Source: Chrysochromulina tobinii
Lineage: Eukaryota
Direction: 5' to 3'
Length of the DNA: 50,060 bases
Assembly (NCBI GenBank): GCA_001275005.1
Contig: JWZX01003125.1
Location: forward strand, 1 to 50,060
Position numbers and translations under genes: made by a program
Shown: positions 40,572 to 50,060 of the stretch, one piece after another
Numbering within the stretch: position 1 is the first letter of the stretch
Layout of the letters: the number at the start of each line of letters is the position of its first letter
Notes under the pieces: model-generated
Told to the model about the DNA's origin: nothing
The model's database searches: none
Seen by the model: the letters and a program-made list of their open reading frames with translations, nothing else

Positions 40572-43004
40572 TCAGCCCTGCGTACCTCCTCCGCCTCCCT
40601 CGCCGCCGCCTCCGCCTCCCTCGCCGCCACCTCCGCCTCCCTCGCCGCCGCCGCGTCTTCCCACAGGCTCTCGGCTCGGGTTCGGACTCCTCCCTCCTCG
40701 TACTACAGTAGTGCGCAGCGGCTCAGGGCTCGGGGACGGCGTCTGGTCAGCCCGCAGAGGCTCAGGGCTCGGGGTCGGCGTCTGGTCAGCCCACCGTGCC
40801 GGCGCGACTTCGCGCGTGCTGGTCTGCGGCGCGATCCTGACGCCCTGCCGGGCATGGGGACTCGAGCTCCTACTCATAGGTCGTGGCCGAGCAGAGGTCA
40901 GCAACCTGAACTGATCGACGTACTCCTGCATGGGCACCGGAGCGACTGTCCAAGGGGCTCCGTCCCGGGCGGCGCCTCCTCCTCTGCCCTCGGCCACACG
41001 CGCCGCCTCGAGCGCGTCCTCGCTCTCCTGCAGCGCGTGAAAGATGGGCAGCAGCAGCTGCTGGCAGCGCCGAATGATCGTGCTCACGCGAGGGAATTCG
41101 CGCGAGTAGAGCTTCGAGTGCAGCCCTGCGACCGCGCTCCGGAAGTCGAGCCCGGCCCCAGCCGACGACGCGCCGCTCGCCGGCACGTGGTTCACGATCA
41201 GGTACACTTCAAAGGCTCCCAGCCGATTGGCGCGCGCCGTGGTCTTTGCCGCGGACGGGCCCGTGAACGAGACGTTCGTGGGCATGAAGCCGTGTGGCGC
41301 GTGCGGGTACGAGCTGAGCCGACGTGAATCGAATATCTCCTCCTCGACCGCGACGGCCCGCACGACCTTGGCGGGGATGTAGCGCGACGGCCTCTGCGTC
41401 GTCGCCGACGAGAAGGAGAGGGCGCCCTCCCACTTGGCGAGAGGGCTCACGATCGCCTCCCCGATGGCATCGGCTAGGCGTCGGTAGGTGCGCTCATACA
41501 TCTCGGGATCGTGCGAGAGGCTATGACCCAATGAGAGCCCGGTGCCGCGCAGACGTGCAGAGCCGCCTAATCGGGGAGACCCCCCCAAAGCACCGCTCAC
41601 GCCGCCGCCCGGATGATAATTCATCTCGACCACCACCAAGACCGACGGGCGCGGCTCGCCAACCTTCCGAGGAGCGCTCAGTGGGGAAATCGGACGCTCC
41701 CGCAACGACTCCGAGGCCATGCGCTGCAGCATCGCCTTCACGGCGGGGGATTCGAGCATGTTCGCCCTCCACGCGCCCTTCTCGCCGTAGATCTCGGCCT
41801 CGAGCACCTTCATCACGGCCTCATGAGGGGCGCTCTTCGTGTTGCTGCCGCCCTTCTTCGCACTGCCTCCCGAGCCCTTGGCCTTACCCGCATTGGCAAC
41901 CTCGCGACTCCACGCCTCCTTGCCGGCCTCCTTGACGGTCGTATTCACAGCGCACAGCTTCTTGGGCAGGTCTTGGATTGCGGGACGATAGGCCGAGCGC
42001 GGAGGGAGGGACGATCGCGCCGGGAAGGCGATCTTGGCGGCACGATGGGCGCGGCTCGCGAGTGCATTGGCGACTGATCGCTGATGGCTCTTGTAGATCA
42101 TCACCGTGTGCTGTATGTCCGGAACGCCGCCGCTCTCCGCCGCGCCGATCACCAGGGCAGCCGGCCGCGCGATCGTAGCCTCATAATCGATGGGCCACTG
42201 CCATTGCTGCCCGCTGATAGTCCAGGCGGGCCGCTCGTTGTCGGTGCCTCCGCGCCGACGCATCTGTTGACGGCGCAGTTCGATCGACGAGGCGGTGGAC
42301 ACGTGGGAGAGCGCCTCCAGTTCCGGCGGCTGCTGCGGCGGCTGCGGCTGCCCGGAGCGTGGCGAGAAGATGGCGGGCCTGGGGGTCGCTGGCCGGCGGG
42401 GTGTGGAGCTGGAGGGCGAGGTTGGGATGTAGATATGTGCCCCGTGCTCTTGCGACGGCGAGGAAGGGACGATCCTTGGTGCCCTCTTGGGCGCGCGCAC
42501 CTTGTCCAGTGGCCATCCGCAACTGTGACAGAACTTGTGCGTCGCCAAACTTCCCTCCTCTCCGCATGCGAGGCAAGCGTCGTGGAACACCTCCTCGAGC
42601 GTATCCGGGAGCTGATGACCGCACAGGCAGCAATGCGTGGCATTCTGGGGATGCAAGAAGGATTGGCAGCCAGGGCACACGGTGGGCGTCTGGAACCCTC
42701 CCAATGGATCCACCGAGAGCTCCCGGAAGCTCTCGGCCGTCGCATCTGGGCTTGCGGGTCGAGGTACCGGGTCTAACGGCAGCGGCCAGCCGCACTGGCA
42801 GCAATAGTTTCCGTCCTCCTGATCGGTGCCGCAGCGAGTGCACATGAGTTGATGGTGAATGGCAGACTCTTTGGGCAGCTTGTGGCCGCAGCCGCAACAA
42901 TGTGACGCAAAGTCGGGATGAGTCTCGAGCCCGCAATACGAACACGGCCGCGGGGTTGAGACGGCGTTCTTGGTCGCTCGTTTGGAGGTGCGAGAGTCGA
43001 TCAT
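40572..43004 (-). CDS. Multiple double-zinc-ribbon protein with an Rdx/SelW-like segment; 3' end ambiguous (frame switches near 40700 and 40390)
   Basis: Four CxxC...CxxCG units; SHDPEMY...RLGAFEVYL...LHSKLYSREFP. Likely start MIDSR at 43004. Confidence 0.6.
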   Translation of the reverse strand: MIDSRTSKRATKNAVSTPRPCSYCGLETHPDFASHCCGCGHKLPKESAIHHQLMCTRCGTDQEDGNYCCQCGWPLPLDPVPRPASPDATAESFRELSVDPLGGFQTPTVCPGCQSFLHPQNATHCCLCGHQLPDTLEEVFHDACLACGEEGSLATHKFCHSCGWPLDKVRAPKRAPRIVPSSPSQEHGAHIYIPTSPSSSTPRRPATPRPAIFSPRSGQPQPPQQPPELEALSHVSTASSIELRRQQMRRRGGTDNERPAWTISGQQWQWPIDYEATIARPAALVIGAAESGGVPDIQHTVMIYKSHQRSVANALASRAHRAAKIAFPARSSLPPRSAYRPAIQDLPKKLCAVNTTVKEAGKEAWSREVANAGKAKGSGGSAKKGGSNTKSAPHEAVMKVLEAEIYGEKGAWRANMLESPAVKAMLQRMASESLRERPISPLSAPRKVGEPRPSVLVVVEMNYHPGGGVSGALGGSPRLGGSARLRGTGLSLGHSLSHDPEMYERTYRRLADAIGEAIVSPLAKWEGALSFSSATTQRPSRYIPAKVVRAVAVEEEIFDSRRLSSYPHAPHGFMPTNVSFTGPSAAKTTARANRLGAFEVYLIVNHVPASGASSAGAGLDFRSAVAGLHSKLYSREFPRVSTIIRRCQQLLLPIFHALQESEDALEAARVAEGRGGGAARDGAPWTVAPVPMQEYVDQFRLLTSARPRPMSRSSSPHARQGVRIAPQTSTREVAPARWADQTPTPSPEPLRADQTPSPSPEPLRTTVVRGGRSPNPSREPVGRRGGGEGGGGGGEGGGGGGEGGGGGTQG

Positions 43005-43341
43005 CGCGCGCGTGTGGTACAGCGGATTGGGGTTGCAGCCACCTGCCGTGACTGGGCGAACTGTCTGTTCATCCGCGTTTTCAACGGTTCCATAAATAGC
43101 ATTGGCACATATCCAAGCATGCATGCGCCGACCGCCGAGCGTGACCAACAACAGATACACCTCCATACATTGTACTACTAGCACTATTACGTACTTGTAC
43201 TTTATTTCTTCATTCCCATGCAGCCTACTTGTATTCGGTCAGTTCTGAGACCTCTCCCGCGACGGTCGCGCCTCTCTGCTTTTATCCGCTTACGAAAGCC
43301 AGATCTGTCGAAGCAGCACCTCCTGCTCCTGCTCCTCCTGC

Positions 43342-46300
43342 TCAGGAGATGACAATCTCGAAGAGCTGCGCGTCCTGAATCGACCACGCGCTCGCATCGA
43401 GCTCCGTGAGCCCCGCCCCCTTCTCCGCAGCGCCGTCGCGCCGAGGGCAACGCAGCAGCCGGCCGGTGTGCGCGCGGAAGGAAACGATGTCCCCATGCCG
43501 CAGCAGATGGGGCGGCTTATGGCGCGGCGCCGTCGTGGGCGGCGGCGCGCCCGGCCAGCTACCCGTCGACGGCGCCGTCGTGGGCACCAGTTCGATCCGA
43601 AACGCTTGCCATTCGGCAACCTCCGTCCACCGAGCCTGCACCGCGCTGCCCTCGACGTCCAAGCAGTAACCGTTGCCTCCGCGCAGGCTCACCGTCTCGC
43701 CTGAGAAGAGGGGACCGCCCGCCGTGGTGAGCACTTGCATGCAAGGCAGCTCATCCGTGGCAATCAACGTACCTGAGAAGAGGGGACCGCCCGCCTTCTT
43801 CTCGATGAGCACTGCGCCGTAGTGGCGGTGCGCGGGCGTGAAGTGAGCGGGTAACGGCGCAATCCCCACCTGATGAGGGGAGCAATCATGGGCAATGAGT
43901 GCGGTCATCAGAGGCCATCAAGTGGGCGGGTGACGGCGCATTCCCCACATGGTTGGCAAACAAAAGATAGACGGGAAGCTCAGTCGCGCGCTCGGAACAG
44001 CGCTCGGTGGCGGCGGTCGCCGGGCGGGCGTCTTCGTGCAAGGGCTTGGGACGGTCCGCCTCAAACGCAGCCCACGTGTCCGCTCCTCCAGCGCCGTCCT
44101 GGGCGCCGTCCTGAGCACCGTCCCGAGCGCCTTCCCGAGCACCACTCGCGGGCTTGGGGCTCTCTTCGAAAGATTCGGCGGCGGAGATCACGCCAGATTC
44201 GGCGGCGGAGATCACGCCAGATTCGGCGGCGGAGATCACGCCAGATTCGGCGGCGGAGATCACGCCAGATTCGGCGGCGGAGATCACGCCAGATTCGGCG
44301 GCGGAGATCACGCCAGATTCGGCGGCGGAGATCGGCGAGGCGAAGCCGAAGGCGAACGATTCCGAGGGCGAGCCTGATGAGTGGCGTCATCAGAGGCGAT
44401 CAATGGCGCGTCATCAGAGGCAATCAGTGGCGCGTCATCAGAGGCCATCCACGGCAGCTGCAGGTGGCGGCGCACCCAGTGGTGAAGCGAAGGTCGCCGC
44501 GAGAGTCGCATTCACGATCGTCCCTTGCTTGAACGCGGCGCTACCTTTCCTGACGGAGGTCCCAAGGGTGCTCCCGAGGGCAGGGCCGATGGCAGCCGCA
44601 CTCTCAGCCTCGCTCAGCGCGCGTAGCATCACCTGTGCAACGAGTGGCGTCATCAGAGGTCATCAAAGGCCATCAGAGGTCATCAGAGGCCATCCGAGAC
44701 ACATTAGGAGCTGAGTGCCCAAGTGCCATCGGTGGCCATCAGAGGCGATCAGAGGCGATCAGAGGCGATCAGAGGCGATCAGAGGCGATCAAGAGGCGAT
44801 CAAGAGGCGATCAGAGGTCATAAGTGCCAATTGCACCTACGTGCCCGAATGGAGCGTGGGACGTCATCAGCAGTCATCATTATTCAACAGCAATCATCAG
44901 CCGTCATCAGCCGTCATCAGCCGTCATCAGCCGTCATCATGACGCACCTTAGTGCCCGAATGGAGCGTGGGACGAACGCGTGGCGCTCCTGCCAACGCCT
45001 GCAGAGACTCGGGGCAGTGGTCCGTGCCGGCCTCGAGCGCCGACAGCCTGATCCGAAACAGAGGAGCGCTGATGAGGGAGGCAATCAAGGACCATCAGAG
45101 GCCATCCGAGGCAATCAGACCTGATCCGAAAATAGGAGCGCTGATGAGGCGAGATGAAGTACGGCTCACAGACCGTCTTGAGCGCCGTCCACGAGTCATG
45201 ACCACCCACGCCCATATGGAGAGCATCGAGGTGGACGTAGATCGAGGGCTCACGCCACTCGCGGAGTCGGTCGGTCGGCGGCGGCTGAGGGCGCGGCGGC
45301 GGCGGCGGCGGCACTGGCGCGCCGTGCTGGCGCGAGATCGTGAGCTCGTCCAGCGAGATGTTGTGTACCGTCATCAAGCTGGGCGGCAGCTCGGGCTGGC
45401 GGAGCGCCGTGCTGGGCAGTACCATGTCGGGCCACAGCACCGTGTTGGGCGGTGCCATGTCGGGGCGCAGCTCGCGCTCGTGTTTCGCCTCGGTGAGCGC
45501 CCCGACCGAGTAGGCGGACACGCTCACCTGGAGAGGGGGCGTGAGTGGCCCCGTGGCCAGCAGCAGCCCGCCGCCGCCGCCCCTGCCCTCGCCGCCGCCC
45601 TCGCCCTCGCCCTCCTCCTCACCGGGCGCCGTATTGGGCGCGCGCACCGCCAGCCAGCGCACGCCGCCCCGCCCGCCGTTCTCACTGGGCACCACGTAGG
45701 CAGTGTGCATGCCCTCGAGGGGTAGCGTGTGCACGCCGAGCCACGCCGAGGCCATCCGATCGGGGTAATTCTCGTGAGGGCCCAGCCCATACCTAATGAG
45801 GGAGGCACTCAGATGCAATCATACATGCGATTCCGATCGGGGTCATTCTCGTGAGGGCCCAGCCCATACCTAATGAGGGAGGCACTCAGATGCAATCATA
45901 CATGCAATTCCGATCGGGGTCATTCTCGTGGGGGCCCAGCCCGTACCATGTGACGAGTGTCGAAGTGCCGCCGTCGATGCCGCCGCCGGTGCCGCCGCCG
46001 GTGCCACTGCCGGTGCCAGTGCTGGTGCTGGTGCCAGTGCTGATGCCGGTGGCTCCGGTCGGTCGAGGAAGTTCGAGGATGACTCCAACGCGAGGTATGC
46101 TCGCAGGGCTCTCAGACGAAGGGTCGCCATTCGCCGCCGGCAGGCGCACCTGCAGCCGTCATCAGCCGTCATCAGTCGTCATCAGTCGTCATCAGCCGTC
46201 ATCAGCCGTCATCAGCCGTCATCAGCCGTCATCAGCCGTCATCAGCCGTCATCAGCCGTCATCAGTGACCATCGGCGCACCTGCAGCTGCAGATGACAGC

Positions 46301-49300
46301 AGACCTCGATGCTCGCGTCCCCCGCGATGAGATACACGAACGTCGCCGTACCAAGGCGCTGCCCCTTGTCGCCGAGCAGCCCCCAGTCGACGAGGACCGA
46401 CACGAGGGAGCGGCACGGCTGCCACGCACGCAGCCCCTCGAGGGTGCGGCTCATGTTGTGAAGCCCCGCCGCTCGCCATTGGTCGGCGTAACGGCCGAGT
46501 TCGTCATTGTCCGTTGGCGCGCGCCAGAGCGACGGGATCGGCCCCACCTGATGAAGGACGCAATCAGAGGTCATCAGTGGTTATCAGTGGTCCTCAGTGG
46601 TCCCAAAACGGTCATCAGAGGTCATCAGAGGTCATCAGCGGTCATCAGTGGTCATCAGAGGTCATCAGAGGTCCCAAAGCGAAGGGATCGGCCCCACCTT
46701 GGCCTTGAGCCTGCCGTCCACCACGTAGTTACGAAGCACGCCGTCTGCATCCACAGAGACGTCGAAGTGCTCTCCCGAGACGCTCCATCCGCCATGGCCG
46801 TCTGCAGCGAGCGTGAGCGGCGCCAGCGCATCGAGCTCGAGAAAGGGCGACGCGCCACTCTTCGTCAGCGCACCAGCACCGCCGCCGCCGCCGCTGCCCG
46901 CGAGGACGCACGGCGCACAGGGCGGCGGCGTGACCTCCCATGTGAAACGACCGACGGTTTCACCTCGGGCGGCCCACGCGTGCTCATCGCGCCAGATCGT
47001 GACGAGATCGATGGCCAGGGTGCCGCCAATCGGCGCCGCAAACGCCGCCGAGAGCGCCGCATGCCATGGAAGCGACGTCGCCGCAATCGACCACGTGGCA
47101 CCGGGCGGCAGGGCAGGGGTGCTCGCAAAGGCACCGTCGGCCATCGGGAGCCCGTCGCGGCGCAGCTGCCAGCGGAGCGCCGTGGTGAGCACTTGCATGC
47201 AAGGCAGGTCATCGGTGGCAATCAGCGCAGCTGCCAGCGAAGCGCCGTGGTGAGCACTTGCATGCAAGGCAGGTCCTCGGCGGCAATCAACGTACCTGCC
47301 AGCGGAGCGCGTACAGTTCGTCGAAGCGCCCGAAATCGAGCATCGAGCGCAGCGTGAGCAGCCGGCCTGTGGGCGCGAGGGTGGCGTACAATGGCTGCTG
47401 CAGATGGCGCACCTGATGGGGGAGGCAATCATGGCCCGTGGGCGCGAGGGTGGCGTACAATGGCTGCTGCAGATGGCGCACCTGATGAGGGAGGCAATCA
47501 TGGACCCTCAGAGGTCATCAGCAGCGTGAGGATGGCGCTACAGGGGCTGCTGCAGACGGCGCACCTCCTCTAGCGCAGGGTGTGGCGTCCGGTCGGGGAA
47601 CGTGAGGCCATTGATGCAGAACTGGCGATCGTGCTGGTAGGAATGGGGCCCGAAGTCGCCGCCGTACGCCCAGCGCATCGTGCCATCGGAGAGCCGTTGG
47701 AGCAGCCCCTGGTCGCACCTGATGAGGGAGGCAATCATGGATCATCCATGGCCATGAGCAGCAGCAGCAGAGAAGCCGATGGAGCAGGCCCTAATCGCAC
47801 CAGCCCCAGATGACCCCTGATGAAGGAGGCCATCATGTATCATCAGTGGTCATCAGTGGGCGCACCAGTCCCAGATGAAGCCGCCTTGCACGTGCGCATG
47901 CTCCCGGAAGAGCGCCCAATAGTCCGCAAGCCCGCCGTTCGAATTGCCCATGGCATGCGAGTACTCGCACAGGAGCAGCGGCCGGTCGTCATTCCCCACA
48001 GCGTCGACCAAATGGGCGCAGTGCTCGGGGCGCGCGTACATGGGCGAGATCACCTGGGAGATACATGGGAGATACATGGGAGATACATGAGCGATACATG
48101 GGCGAGATCACCTGGGAGTCACTCAGCGGCACTCAGCGGCACTCAGCGTCACTCAGCGGGGTTCAGAAGAGAGACTAGGGCGACCAGAGGGGCCTTAGAA
48201 GAGAGATTAGGGCCATCCGAGGGCATCGGAGGGCGATGCCGAGGCGATCCGAGGGCATCAGAGGGCGATGCCGAGGCCATCCGAGGGCCATCACCTCGGA
48301 GGCGCCGTTGTGGCAGTTGCCCAGCCCTTCGTAGTGAGAGGGACGCGTCGGGTCGCGCGCGTTGATCCACTGCCGCATGAGCAGATGGGTGGGTCCAACG
48401 CCACTCTCATTCCCCAGAGACCACATGAAGATGCATGCGTGGTTCTTCTGCGACTCGACCATACGTGTGACGCGAGCTAGCAGGGCACGCCGCCACTCGG
48501 GCGACGCGTTCAGATGGAGCTTGTTCGAGGGGGCGGGCAGGGAGACGAGGCCGTGCGTCTCGATGTTGGCCTCGTCCATGACGTACAGACCCACCTCATC
48601 ACAGATCTCGTACCTGATGAGGGGCGCAATCAAAGGTATTGAGGGACGCAAACAAAGGTAATGAGGGACGCAATCAAAGCTGGGCGCGCGGCCGCACCTG
48701 ATGAGGGACGCAATCAAAGCTGATGAGGGACGCAATCAAAGCTGATGATGAGGGGTGCACTCAGGGGACGCACTCAGAGGGCGCAGCTCAGGGGCACTCC
48801 GAGCCAGATCGCGAGCTCGTCGCAGATCGCGAGCTCGACGCAGATCGCGAGCTCGTCGCGGAGGTCGCGTACCAGCGCGTCGCGTTTGGATAGTGCGAGC
48901 AGCGCCTCGCGTGATGAGGGAGGCAATCGAGGGTGGCAATCACGTACCAGCGCGTCGCGTTTGGATAGTGCGAGCAGCGCGTCGCGTTGAAGTTGTACTT
49001 CTTCATCATCAGCGCGTCCGTCCACATGGACGCATCGCTCACGTACCTGATGAGGGGGGCACTCAGGTGCAATCATGCATGCAATCAGATGCCATTCGAG
49101 GCACTCTGTATAGCACGACCCCGCTCACGCACTTGCCCGTGTGCTCATCGTGCTCGTGCCGGTTGACGCCCTTGAAGATGACCGGCACGCCGTTGATCAG
49201 CAACTTCTTGCCTTGCACGCAGCATGTGCGCGCACCCAGCCGCTGCCATTCCCACTCGAGCACCCCACCAGGCTCCTCGCCCGCGTACCTGTGATGAGGG

Positions 49301-50060
49301 AGGCAATCCGAGGCACTCAGAAGCACTCAGAAGCACTCCGAGGCACTCAGAAGCCCTCAGAAGCAATCCGAGGCACTTCCACACGAACATCCCCACAGGC
49401 CCTCGCGCGCGCGCACCGCTCAACCGCGGCCATCAGCGGCCATCAGCGGCCATCAGCGGTCATCAGTGGCCATCAGTGGCCATCAGCGGCCATCAGTGGC
49501 CATCCGCGGCCATCAGTGGTCATCAGTGGTCATCAGAGGTCATCAGTGGTCATCGGTGGTCATCAGTGCGCGCGCACCGCTCATCCGCGGCCAGCATCGC
49601 GCCCGTGACGACGCCATCGGGCGCCTCGGCTGCGGCGTCGCTCACGTCAAGCAGAGCGAGGCTGAGAGTGTACCTGATGAGGGAGACCATCAGGCGTCAT
49701 CAGGCGTCATCCAGGCGTCATCCAGGCGTCATCAGAGGTCATCAGAGGTCATCAGAGGTCATCAGAGGTCATCAGAGGTCATCAGAGGTCATCAGAGGCC
49801 TTCCGAGGCGATCCGAGGGGTCATAAGGGCCATCCGAGGCGATCCATCCGTCCACAGAGGCCATCCGACGTACAGGTAGGGCGACTCGGCCGACCAGAGC
49901 TGCGGACTTTCGAGCGCCGTCTCGATTTCCAGGGGCAGCACATCCGCGCGTGCCGCCGTCGTCTCCTCCTGGCCCACCCATACGCGCGGCGCGCGGGCCC
50001 AGTTTGGAAAGAGGCCGCCGCCGCCGCCGCCGCCCCCGCCGCCGCTGCCGCCACCGACGC
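43342..50060 (-). CDS. lacZ: GH2 beta-galactosidase (LacZ-like) with a C-terminal fascin/beta-trefoil-like domain; 5' end outside the window; 16 predicted introns
   Basis: The spliced frame gives [154 protein letters not shown] and [15 protein letters not shown]. Confidence 0.92.
43701..43772 (-). other. Intron 16: 49-nt donor cassette and a perfect duplicate of the upstream exon end
   Basis: 24-bp direct repeat at 43700-43723 and 43772-43795. The 72-nt length is in frame, so retention would also read through. Confidence 0.75.
43870..43948 (-). other. Intron 15: 29-nt exon duplicate and acceptor cassette
   Basis: Intron start GTGGGGAATGCGCCGTCACCCGCCCACTT vs exon start GTGGGGATTGCGCCGTTACCCGCTCACTT (26/29); ends ATGATTGCTCCCCTCATCAG. 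Confidence 0.85.
44171..44333 (-). repeat. Perfect 24-bp tandem repeat (six full units and one partial) encoding (ISAAESGV)n
   Basis: AGATTCGGCGGCGGAGATCACGCC repeated head to tail on the plus strand, with no spacers. Confidence 0.92.
44374..44475 (-). other. Intron 14 (donor position least certain)
   Basis: G|GTGCGC...GACGCCACTCATCAG|GC keeps the frame into the ISAAESGV repeat exon. Confidence 0.5.
44633..44947 (-). other. Intron 13: two repeat arrays and a copy of the upstream exon end
   Basis: AAG|GTGCGT...TTGCACAG|GTG; duplicate GTCCCACGCTCCATTCGGGCAC at about 44841-44862. Confidence 0.65.
45048..45120 (-). other. Intron 12: ends in a ~30-nt duplicate of the upstream exon end
   Basis: ATCAG|GTCTGATTGCC...CCTCATCAGCGCTCCTCTGTTTCGGATCAG|GCTG restores FRIRLSAL. 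Confidence 0.75.
45793..45946 (-). other. Intron 11: two 77-nt units, each a 38-nt exon duplicate plus a 39-nt acceptor cassette
   Basis: Restores [15 protein letters not shown]. Confidence 0.88.
46150..46280 (-). other. Intron 10: (TGATGACGGC)n body flanked by a 14-nt junction repeat
   Basis: GCTGCAG|GTGCGCC at both ends; restores LQLQVRLP. Confidence 0.85.
46548..46697 (-). other. Intron 9: 24-nt exon duplicate, repeat array and acceptor cassette
   Basis: Intron start GTGGGGCCGATCCCTTCGCTTTGG vs exon start GTGGGGCCGATCCCGTCGCTCTGG; restores [16 protein letters not shown]. Confidence 0.88.
47166..47295 (-). other. Intron 8: donor cassette (two units) and a duplicate of the upstream exon end
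   Basis: CAG|GTACGTTGATTGCC...GTGCTCACCAC-GGCGCTCCGCTGGCAG|CTG restores ALRWQLRR. Confidence 0.82.
47413..47564 (-). other. Intron 7: ~40-nt exon duplicate and two tandem acceptor cassettes 69 bp apart
   Basis: GAG|GTGCGCCGTCTGCAGCAGCC...CATCAG|GTGCGCCATCTGCAGCAGCC restores EEVRHLQQP. Confidence 0.8.
47719..47865 (-). other. Intron 6: acceptor cassettes and a degenerate copy of the uninterrupted junction
   Basis: TG|GTGCG...ATGATTGCCTCCCTCATCAG|GTGCG restores WDWCDQG. Confidence 0.88.
48054..48294 (-). other. Intron 5: repeat-rich, with a duplicated acceptor junction
   Basis: GAG|GTGAT...CTCCCAG|GTGATCTCGCCCATGTA restores ASEVISPMY; a second CTCCCAGGTGATCTCGCCCATGTA lies at about 48096-48119. 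Confidence 0.8.
48614..48947 (-). other. Intron 4: stacked acceptor cassettes and a copy of the upstream exon end
   Basis: TG|GTACG...TGATTGCGCCCCTCATCAG|GTACG restores NATRWYEICDE. Confidence 0.85.
49047..49132 (-). other. Intron 3: acceptor cassette; 11-nt duplicate of the downstream exon start
   Basis: AA|GTGCGTGAGCG...CTGAGTGCCCCCCTCATCAG|GTACGTGAGCG restores HTGKYVSD. Confidence 0.85.
49289..49577 (-). other. Intron 2: acceptor cassette; internal copy of its own donor junction; TGATGGCCRC-type arrays
   Basis: CG|GTGCGCG...GATTGCCTCCCTCATCACAG|GTACGCG restores DERYAGEE. Confidence 0.75.
49674..49873 (-). other. Intron 1 (within window): acceptor cassette; GTAC duplicated at both ends; (TGATGACCTC)n body
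   Basis: CT|GTACGT...TCTCCCTCATCAG|GTAC restores PYLYTL. Confidence 0.85.

What the first reader, a model, noticed from the sequence alone, without database searches (positions are those of the whole stretch)
43701..43795. Class A mirror design: 49-nt donor cassette plus a copy of the upstream exon end (gives AG)
Seen: GTACGTTGATTGCCACGGATGAGCTGCCTTGCATGCAAGTGCTCACCAC sits between perfect 24-bp direct repeats. A near-identical cassette occurs 3.5 kb away at 47166-47295 (two units) with a different ~15-nt duplication. Here the cassette brings the GT and the duplicated exon end brings the AG, the reverse of class B, yet both classes share TGATTGCC and CATGCA-like words. Inference: the same cassette at unrelated sites with site-specific duplications indicates mobility, and the perfect repeat suggests a very recent event.
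Basis: seen in the sequence. Interest (0 to 1): 0.82.

Follow-up and report, generated by a model that had tools for sequence, protein, structure and literature searches.

The report
Recent mobile intron with long duplication
A 72-base intron in a GC-rich eukaryote's gene consists of a short cassette found in over a hundred other gene sites plus a 24-base copy of the gene's own sequence; it is spliced out of the RNA and missing from close relatives, and the family likely spreads by repair-type copying rather than by a transposase.

Summary

- **Structure.** On the minus strand, 43701-43772 is a GT..AG intron. It consists of a 48-nt cassette and a perfect 24-nt copy of the upstream exon end, which supplies the AG.
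- **Splicing.** RNA contigs of 3 of 3 RNA runs laid skip exactly these 72 nt. The DNA run laid does not.
- **Empty sites.** Four of 5 related read-through ORF clusters (90-98% identical) lack exactly the 24 codons and hold one copy of the duplicated residues. Two relatives also read straight through the second site, 47166-47295.
- **Copy number.** The 26-nt core occurs in at least 124 metagenome stretches, which group into 102 contexts.
- **Flanking repeats.** Of 66 solitary copies, 51 sit between locus-specific direct repeats of 12-41 nt. The repeat gives the AG in 29, the GY in 10 and both in 5.
- **Mechanism (inferred).** Repeat length varies, there are no terminal inverted repeats, and junctions show RGCG microhomology. 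Whole introns are also shared by unrelated loci that match only 9-14 nt. This points to homology-guided copy-and-paste by repair or replication, not a transposase.
- **Status.** It is a new variant of the known introner kind. The scan noted a sister case before on another piece of this genome (e1-2577349).

The parts
43701..43772 (-). Site-1 intron, 72 nt, GT (43772-43771) .. AG (43702-43701). It is phase 1 and has no stop in frame if retained.
   Evidence: Sequence read. RNA joint 43699>43772 skipping 72 nt, one contig in each of the RNA runs X12, X13 and X14, and none in the DNA run X1.
43724..43771 (-). 48-nt cassette lying between the repeats. It comprises the donor arm (G)TACGTTGATTGCCACGGATGAG and the 26-nt core.
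   Evidence: The arm variant plus core plus GGCGGG is identical over 55 nt to loci L085 and L086.
43724..43749 (-). 26-nt core CTGCCTTGCATGCAAGTGCTCACCAC. It holds the 12-nt palindrome CTTGCATGCAAG and a CTCAC that could be the branch site (inferred).
   Evidence: 3 copies in the window, 0 expected. (at least 124 metagenome stretches). (the palindrome is the only inverted repeat inside the cassette).
43700..43723 (-). Intron-side copy of the 24-nt duplication. It supplies the polypyrimidine run and the AG.
   Evidence: 24/24 identical to 43772-43795. In one search the joint has 'both' = 24.
43772..43795 (-). Exon-side (original) copy of the 24-nt duplication. It codes for ..AGGPLFS(G).
   Evidence: translation. 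Relatives without the insert keep one copy, EKKAGGP[LI]FSGETV.
47166..47295 (-). Site-2 intron, 130 nt, in a GH2 beta-galactosidase-like gene. It holds two 65-nt tandem units of cassette plus duplication. The inner unit also carries 6 nt (CTGCGC) of the downstream exon.
   Evidence: (family D15, 95% identity). The X15 RNA contig piece starts exactly at 47296. Relatives P0009 and P0010 read ELYALRW[QE]LRRAG without it. Pfam GH2 domains lie on both sides.
47296..47310 (-). Exon-side copy of the 15-nt duplication of site 2. The intron-side copy is at 47166-47180.
   Evidence: 15/15 identical; the flanking bases differ.
43863..43941 (-). Neighbouring 79-nt intron of the mirror class. A 29-nt duplication with 3 mismatches supplies the GT, and an ..ATGATTGCTCCCCTCATCAG cassette supplies the AG.
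   Evidence: Joint 43862>43942 in the same X12 contig that also lacks the site-1 intron. Boundary repeat measured.

Best explanation
The 72 bases at 43701-43772 (minus strand) are a spliced intron made of a 48-base copy of a dispersed cassette plus a 24-base duplicate of the upstream exon end, and the family likely multiplies by homology- and microhomology-guided copying from existing introns during DNA repair or replication rather than by a transposase.

Shown:
- The cassette supplies GTACGT and the duplicated exon end supplies the pyrimidine run and the AG.
- The RNA lacks exactly these 72 nt.
- Close relatives lack them too and keep one copy of the duplicated segment.
- The same core stands in over 100 other contexts between locus-specific repeats of 12-41 nt.

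Inferred:
- A nascent DNA end in the target (ending ..CAG) pairs with the exon end of an existing copy and copies the donor arm, the core and part of the tail. It then switches back to its own template at a short match (often RGCG) 12-41 nt upstream, so the target stretch is copied twice.
- Where the target already matches 9-14 nt of the source intron's tail, the whole intron is copied in.
- Re-invasion out of register gives tandem units, as at site 2.
- Only inserts that leave a usable GY..AG pair, an adequate length (64-93 nt) and a branch site at a workable distance survive in exons. The branch site is possibly the CTCAC in the core, 17 nt or more before the AG.
For: Splicing. Joint 43699>43772, 72 nt, CT..AC, one contig in each of 3 of 3 RNA runs and 0 in the DNA run. 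One X12 contig lacks both this intron and the neighbouring one.

Empty sites. P0004-P0007, 4 of 5 related clusters, lack exactly 24 residues and have a single EKKAGGP[LI]FSG. They still read through the upstream intron, which argues that they come from DNA. Site 2 is absent in P0009 and P0010.

Family. The 140 core instances group into 102 contexts. Of 56 contexts with a donor arm, 39 have an exon-end copy above the 99th percentile of 2,000 mismatched-pair controls. Of 66 solitary copies, 51 have flanking repeats above the 99th percentile of 1,500 controls. The repeats are 12-41 nt long, median 22, and 30 of 51 are perfect.

Orientation. A GY..AG register exists in 44 of 51 in the sense of the core, against 13 of 51 in antisense. 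Only 15 of 44 lengths are multiples of 3, so the family depends on splicing.

Mechanism.
- There are no terminal inverted repeats.
- In 12 loci the right repeat copy starts within 3 nt of the core, so the target's own sequence supplies the first bases of the tail. In 10 of these 12 (9 of 11 without the tandem locus L013) the tail still reads RGCG, against a background of 0.022 per position.
- Unrelated loci share whole introns including 24-26-nt tails: L002/L018, L007/L013/L029, L041/L093. Their exon ends match only the last 9-14 nt.
- L124 carries an old tail plus its own 15-nt repeat.
- 31 of 102 contexts have a further core-like copy within 110 nt.
- One locus differs by one 82-nt unit between two records that are otherwise identical at 324 of 327 columns.
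Against: - No insertion was watched happening, so the template-switch route is inferred from junction anatomy alone.
- The loci were found with the core as the search key. 'The core is always present' is therefore circular, and fragments without it are invisible.
- 15 of 66 solitary copies show no repeat above control. Seven of the 51 repeat-flanked ones have no GY..AG register.
- Long repeats may partly be a survivor effect, because short ones would give unspliceable introns in exons.
- The microhomology count rests on 12 loci, and maximal repeat extension inflates it slightly.
- Variable-length duplications are also made by target-primed reverse transcription.
- The empty-site evidence is at protein level only. 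The contigs behind P0004-P0010 could not be read.
- Splicing of site 2 is not shown by a listed joint. There is only a contig piece ending at its exon edge.
- Contigs cannot exclude partial retention of the 72 nt, which would be in frame and free of stops.
Confidence: 0.6

Rival explanations
1. It is a classical introner. A non-autonomous DNA transposon is moved by a transposase that makes staggered cuts, and the target-site duplication supplies the missing splice site, as reported for Micromonas, Aureococcus, Symbiodinium and marine Chrysochromulina.
For: The logic is the same: one splice site comes from the element and the other from the duplication. Gozashti et al. report Chrysochromulina sp. 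introners of about 70 nt with no TIRs that carry the 5' site and co-opt the 3' site. They list up to 827 copies in one MAG.
Against: Published duplications are 4-8 nt and fixed within a class. Here they run from 12 to 41 nt within one family. There are no TIRs. Both ends of the inserted piece vary. Junctions show microhomology, and old tails are carried along.
Confidence: 0.1
2. It spreads through RNA. Excised or unspliced intron RNA is reverse-transcribed, either by target-primed reverse transcription from a non-LTR element or as cDNA captured at a staggered break. This gives variable-length duplications.
For: Duplication length is variable. Copies are almost always in the sense of the host gene (44 of 51 against 13 of 51). 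Copied units begin at the GT, and some are whole introns. The cassette is abundant in RNA-library contigs.
Against: There is no A-rich or other constant 3' tail, and the cassette has no tRNA/7SL/5S-like match. Both ends vary rather than only the 5' end. Targets share 9-14 nt of identity with the incoming tail, which implies DNA-strand annealing. The inner unit of site 2 includes 6 nt of downstream exon, so at least that step took place in DNA. The sense bias can come from selection alone.
Confidence: 0.2
3. It is a purely local event. A tandem duplication across an existing splice site (the Rogers model), or an in-frame coding repeat, happens to look like an intron, and the cassette similarity reflects shared splicing signals rather than copying.
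For: This lineage makes many short tandem duplications: 24-nt x 8, 69-nt x 2 and 77-nt x 3 in the window, and 18-aa and 9-aa duplications in relatives. The two units at site 2 are a local tandem duplication. The 72 nt are in frame without a stop.
Against: The 48 nt between the repeats are foreign to the locus and absent from relatives. An exact 26-nt core in over 100 contexts cannot be convergence. The RNA removes the 72 nt.
Confidence: 0.04

Closest known systems
Introners that carry one splice site and co-opt the other from the target-site duplication. Sources: Micromonas pusilla / Aureococcus (Huff, Zilberman & Roy 2016, recalled and not read here); Symbiodinium / Polarella ILEs (bioRxiv 10.1101/2020.10.14.339549, passages read); Chrysochromulina sp. 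family 5 (Gozashti et al. 2022, 10.1101/2022.06.06.494994, passages and Supplementary Table 5 rows read).
   Same: It is a short, multi-copy, non-coding element that lies almost only in genes, and excision from the RNA is exact. The element gives one splice site and the duplication gives the other. Both orientations of that logic, and a 'both sites from the duplication' form, occur within one genome. The Chrysochromulina example is likewise about 70 nt, lacks TIRs, and carries the 5' site.
   Different: Published duplications are 4-8 nt and constant within a class. Here they are 12-41 nt (median 22) and vary within one family. The ends of the inserted piece also vary. Junctions show microhomology, earlier duplications travel with the copy, and tandem units are common. 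Whether this is the same family as the published Chrysochromulina one could not be tested, because no sequence of it was available.
Novel introns captured during double-strand-break repair, flanked by short direct repeats (Daphnia, Drosophila, Aspergillus). Reviewed in Farlow et al. 2011, PMC3020277; passages read.
   Same: Direct repeats overlap the splice sites, and microhomology sits at the junction between the captured DNA and the target. No transposase is needed.
   Different: In those cases the captured DNA is unique to each intron and the repeats are short. Here the captured DNA is one recurring cassette copied from other introns, and the repeats are long.
Intron creation by tandem duplication of an AGGT-containing exon segment (Rogers model; recalled, not read here).
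   Same: Five of 51 loci take both splice sites from the duplicated segment. Secondary tandem units, as at site 2, arise this way.
   Different: At site 1 and in most copies a foreign cassette lies between the duplicates and supplies one splice site.
A 66-nt intron with a 15-nt duplication that gives the GT.
   Same: It has the same footprint, described from the mirror side. It also makes the same claim of over a hundred related introns in lake metagenomes.
   Different: That note concerns another locus. Here splicing, empty sites in relatives, junction microhomology and whole-intron copies were tested. Its 'haptophyte' label was not verified here.

Membership tests
Introners (intron-generating mobile elements) | Many near-identical copies forming introns at non-homologous gene positions | tested here: met
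   The exact 26-nt core stands in at least 124 metagenome stretches, which group into 102 contexts. There are three copies in the window at two sites.
Introners (intron-generating mobile elements) | Precisely spliced from the host transcript | tested here: met
   Site 1: a 72-nt joint in 3 of 3 RNA runs laid. Site 2: only partial support. Other family members were not tested.
Introners (intron-generating mobile elements) | Presence/absence among close relatives (recent gain) | tested here: met
   Four of 5 related ORF clusters lack exactly 24 codons at site 1. Two relatives lack site 2. This is protein-level evidence; the DNA of those contigs was not seen.
Introners (intron-generating mobile elements) | Target-site duplication that supplies a splice site | tested here: met
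   51 of 66 solitary copies have locus-specific flanking repeats. The repeat gives the AG in 29, the GY in 10 and both in 5.
DNA-transposon (MITE-type) introners | Terminal inverted repeats | tested here: not met
   The only inverted repeat inside the cassette is the central palindrome CTTGCATGCAAG. The termini are unpaired in the fold.
DNA-transposon (MITE-type) introners | Duplication of fixed length set by the transposase | tested here: not met
   Lengths run from 12 to 41 nt within one family.
SINE / non-LTR retroposed elements | A-rich or LINE-derived constant 3' tail and a small-RNA-derived head | tested here: not met
   No A run is present in the sequence. There is no Rfam match on the cassette at E up to 1. 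The tails vary and are GC-rich.
SINE / non-LTR retroposed elements | Variable-length target duplications | tested here: met
   12-41 nt.
Break-repair-captured introns (Daphnia type) | Direct repeats over the splice sites with microhomology at the junctions | tested here: met
   The tail still reads RGCG in 10 of 12 junctions where the target supplies those bases, against a background of 0.022.
Break-repair-captured introns (Daphnia type) | Captured DNA is a one-off fragment, not a family | tested here: not met
   The same cassette occurs in 102 contexts.

The most novel reading that the evidence does not exclude
An intron family that breeds without any enzyme of its own. Each copy ends in a duplicate of its host exon, so the cassette sits between two identical short arms. 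Host repair or replication can then copy it into any gene that shares about ten bases with those arms. Microhomology slips create fresh duplications, which become the arms for the next jump. This would be a self-propagating, homology-hitchhiking way of gaining introns, distinct from transposase- or reverse-transcriptase-driven introners.
Probability: 0.35. Interest if true: 0.85.

Novelty: new variant of a known kind. Interest (0 to 1): 0.64.

Why it matters
How bursts of new introns arise is a long-standing question. The accepted examples are transposons with short, fixed target duplications.

This locus offers three things together: an insertion with before-and-after states (relatives with the empty site), RNA proof of exact removal, and a family whose junctions look like repair products rather than transposase products.

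If the copying route is confirmed, it would show that an intron can spread using only host repair and its own flanking duplication. It would also supply a sequence family that makes this testable in cultures and lake populations.

There is a practical point as well. Such 60-90-nt introns, some in frame and free of stops, are read through by prokaryote-style gene callers. The result is false 24-residue 'insertions' in metagenome proteins, as in P0003.

Tried and rejected
- **Own genome.** None is held, so no census of copies, intergenic copies or autonomous elements was possible.
- **Structured or known RNA in the cassette.** No Rfam match lies on the cassette at E up to 1; the five weak hits in 43000-48000 lie elsewhere. 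The folds are no better than shuffles, with z of +0.59, -0.48 and -0.55.
- **Pfam on the site-1 host ORF and on the 888-aa neighbouring ORF.** No family was found.
- **Naming the organism.** Homologue searches returned no informative names, and the cluster look-up of P0010 gave none. The 10-nt intron repeats and GC-AG donors fit my recollection of haptophyte genomes, which is recall only.
- **First repeat test.** It was confounded by tandem cassettes (control maximum 46). I replaced it with tests on solitary copies. The script crashed while printing its last rows, after the counts had been given.
- **Literature.** I searched for introner + haptophyte (7 papers), introner + target site duplication (14 papers), haptophyte + introns + tandem repeats + splice, Chrysochromulina / introns / GC-AG, and intron gain / direct repeats / break repair / microhomology. 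None of the listed papers that I opened describes introners with 12-41-nt variable duplications. This holds for these searches only. The figures and most supplements of the introner papers were not seen.
- **Unresolved RNA contigs.** In X12-X14, contigs carry a site-1-like 72-nt intron between other flanks. They may be a further copy, or an assembly path through the 55 nt shared with L085/L086.
- **Depth as copy number.** The summed DNA-contig depth on the cassette is about 35,000 against about 46 beside it. It only hints at hundreds of copies.
- **Scan notes.** Look-ups by sequence and by relatives found nothing.
Full report
**1. What is in the sequence.**
On the plus strand the 24-mer CCTGAGAAGAGGGGACCGCCCGCC stands at 43700-43723 and again at 43772-43795. 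The copies are identical at 24 of 24 positions, and the flanking bases differ on both sides. Between them lie 48 nt.

Read on the minus strand, the stretch is exon ..GGCGGGCGGTCCCCTCTTCTCAG | GTACGTTGATTGCCACGGATGAG-CTGCCTTGCATGCAAGTGCTCACCAC-GGCGGGCGGTCCCCTCTTCTCAG | GCGAG.. This is a 72-nt GT..AG intron (43701-43772).

The 26-nt core occurs three times in the window, at 43724, 47182 and 47247. None of 100 shuffles gave a match. The donor-arm motif occurs only at these two sites.

The second site, 47166-47295, is a 130-nt GT..AG intron made of two 65-nt tandem units. A perfect 15-nt duplication of its own exon end flanks it. Its cassettes match the site-1 49-mer at 45/49 and 44/49 positions. 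Its inner unit also contains 6 nt of the downstream exon, so that unit arose by a local DNA duplication.

**2. Host genes.**
Site 2 lies in a beta-galactosidase-like (GH2) gene on the minus strand. Glyco_hydro_2_C lies upstream (E 6.8e-29) and Bgal_small_N downstream (E 2.6e-27). The site-1 ORF has no Pfam family. Whether it belongs to the same transcription unit is not shown. The rest of the window holds ordinary eukaryotic genes: DEAD-box helicases, HORMA, RING/PA, EF-hand and LRR. My calls did not name the organism.

**3. It is spliced.**
Public RNA-library contigs hold the gene. When laid on 43400-44100, one contig in each of three RNA runs (X12, X13, X14) joins 43699 to 43772 and skips 72 nt. 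The ends are CT..AC, which is GT..AG on the minus strand. There are 80-98 nt on the shorter side, and 24 nt fit either side.

The DNA run X1 has no such joint, and its contigs hold the unjoined form. One X12 contig lacks both this intron and the neighbouring 79-nt intron.

If retained, the 72 nt would be in frame without a stop and would add 24 residues. Contigs cannot exclude some retention.

For site 2 the only RNA support is a contig piece that starts exactly at its exon edge, 47296.

**4. It is recent, and the duplication came with it.**
The read-through ORF of site 1 has five related clusters among metagenome proteins. In the alignment, P0003 (99% identical) has the 24 extra residues, with one substitution in the intron-side copy. 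P0004, P0005, P0006 and P0007 (90-98% identical in aligned columns) lack exactly those 24 residues and read EKKAGGP[LI]FSGETV once.

These four still read through the upstream intron (..[18 protein letters not shown]..). This argues that they come from DNA and not from spliced RNA. The contigs themselves could not be read.

At site 2, P0009 and the more distant P0010 read ..ELYALRW[QE]LRRAG.. straight across the junction.

That condition was that the 72 nt are retained in all transcripts and conserved in orthologues.

**5. The cassette is a dispersed family.**
With the window's three copies, that makes 140 core instances, which group into 102 distinct flank contexts.
- Of 56 contexts with a donor arm beside the core and at least 30 nt of upstream flank, 39 have a copy of their own exon end after the core, ending in AG. 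These score above the 99th percentile of 2,000 mismatched-pair controls.
- Copies with a second core nearby were set aside: 31 of 102. This left 66 solitary copies with at least 80 nt on both sides; 5 contexts had flanks too short.
- Of the 66, 51 are flanked by a locus-specific direct repeat above the 99th percentile of 1,500 controls. The repeats are 12-41 nt long, median 22, and 30 of 51 are perfect.
- A GY..AG register exists in the sense of the core in 44 of 51, against 13 of 51 in antisense.
- The repeat gives the AG in 29 loci, the GY in 10 and both in 5. Seven have no canonical register.
- Intron lengths are 64-93 nt, and only 15 of 44 are multiples of three, so the family depends on splicing.
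- A few copies (L081, L022) have a donor arm, the core and a pyrimidine-rich ..CCCACAG tail of their own, with no repeat.

**6. How it likely spreads (inferred).**
Four features argue against a transposase:
- Repeat length varies threefold within the family.
- There are no terminal inverted repeats.
- Both ends of the inserted piece vary.
- The junctions show microhomology.

On the last point, the tail after the core begins AGCGC in 39 and GGCGC in 17 of 66 copies. In the 12 loci where the right repeat copy starts within 3 nt of the core, the tail still reads RGCG in 10 (9 of 11 without the tandem locus L013). In those loci the target's own sequence supplies these bases. The background is 0.022 per position. 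Site 1 itself shows this: GGCG is shared between the tail and the exon.

Copies are also templated from other copies. Among 40 class-A loci, six pairs with unrelated flanks share the whole intron, including a 24-26-nt tail: L002/L018, L007/L013, L007/L029, L013/L029, L013/L037 and L041/L093. Tail identity is 96-100% in five pairs and 88% in L013/L037, while flank identity is only 0.19-0.64. In these loci the exon end matches only the last 9-14 nt of the tail. L124 carries such an old tail followed by its own 15-nt repeat.

The closest sibling of site 1 among the fetched loci is L085/L086, identical over arm + core + GGCGGG, which is 55 nt.

Unit number is also unstable. L020 and L028 are the same locus (324 of 327 aligned columns identical) with two units and one unit respectively.

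Together this fits copying from an existing intron by a DNA end that pairs at the exon end. It then returns to its own template at a short match a few tens of bases upstream, which makes a new duplication. Alternatively it returns at a pre-existing 9-14-nt match, which copies the whole intron in. Selection then keeps only spliceable products.

The minimum core-to-AG distance of 17 nt and the CTCAC in the core suggest that the core supplies the branch site. This is untested.

**7. Context in the gene.**
Of eight introns examined in this region, seven have boundary repeats of 10 nt or more: 24, 29, 39, 14, 15, 22 and 10 nt, some with 1-3 mismatches. Seven of the eight are backed by RNA joints or pieces, and site 2 by structure. 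Duplication-flanked introns are therefore the rule here, with several cassette types.

**8. Comparison with what is known.**
Introners that carry one splice site and take the other from the target duplication are established. Published duplications are 4-8 nt and class-specific. Marine Chrysochromulina MAGs are reported to hold up to 827 introners, including a roughly 70-nt, TIR-less type with a '4 bp' duplication that carries the 5' site. The 2025 survey lists families 'with unknown molecular mechanisms', but its main text does not mention haptophytes. The break-repair capture model explains repeat-flanked one-off introns.

The present family joins the two. It has a recurring cassette together with long, variable, microhomology-bounded duplications. 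I found no description of this in the searches, within their limits.

The scan itself noted the mirror-class footprint earlier on another piece of this genome (e1-2577349).

**9. Verdict.**
The basic reading is close to certain: a recent, spliced intron made by a mobile cassette plus a target duplication. The copying mechanism is an inference, at about 0.5-0.6. The finding is a new variant of a known kind.

Noticed in passing
window 44147-44362: There are about eight perfect 24-nt tandem units (AGATTCGGCGGCGGAGATCACGCC). On the minus strand they read as an in-frame 8-residue repeat (..SAAESGVI..). RNA contigs cover part of the array (43942-44200), so it appears to be exonic.
   Followed up: partly
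window 44641-44830, 46150-46290, 46556-46675, 49299-49600, 49700-49850: Long arrays of 10-nt units (CATCAGAGGC-like on plus, TGATGRCCNC on minus) fill the introns of the beta-galactosidase-like gene. The donor arm of the cassette (TGATTGCCAC TGATGAC..) is built from the same unit. Summed RNA-contig depths there reach thousands.
   Followed up: partly
window 45755-45947 and 47364-47501: There are tandem units of 77 nt (x3) and 69 nt (x2). Each holds an acceptor-type cassette plus the start of the next exon. The RNA joints 45789>45944 and 47405>47558 remove them.
   Followed up: partly
window 43863-43941: This 79-nt intron lies 90 nt upstream of site 1 and is flanked by a 29-nt duplication with 3 mismatches that supplies its GT. 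All five related ORF clusters read through it, so it is older than the site-1 insertion.
   Followed up: yes
P0004 and P0007 (relatives of the site-1 ORF): The relatives carry an extra 18-residue (P0004) and 9-residue (P0007) tandem duplication in the proline-rich linker. This suggests a high rate of short tandem duplication in coding DNA of this lineage.
   Followed up: no
L019 / L100: A 38-nt core-containing insert sits between perfect 28-nt duplications. It has no GY..AG register, and the added length is 66 nt (22 codons). It may be a retained in-frame insertion, a non-canonical intron, or non-genic.
   Followed up: no
window 43700-43775, RNA runs X12-X14: RNA contigs of 1,098-1,430 nt carry a site-1-like 72-nt intron, including the 24-nt tail, between unlike flanks. 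One flank equals the upstream exon of L085. This is either a further copy or an assembly path through the shared 55 nt.
   Followed up: partly
P0010 (NCBI-sourced relative of the beta-galactosidase-like gene): P0010 is about 50% identical. It reads without interruption across two intron positions of the window (47406-47557 and 47166-47295). It ends in a translated 10-nt-repeat array (..WPLMTPDGHLWPLMTPD..). The relative therefore has the repeat-type introns, but at other positions.
   Followed up: partly
window 1-40500: Most other genes of the window are long uninterrupted ORFs of up to 1,429 codons. The beta-galactosidase-like gene, by contrast, is densely interrupted, so intron load is very uneven between neighbouring genes.
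   Followed up: no
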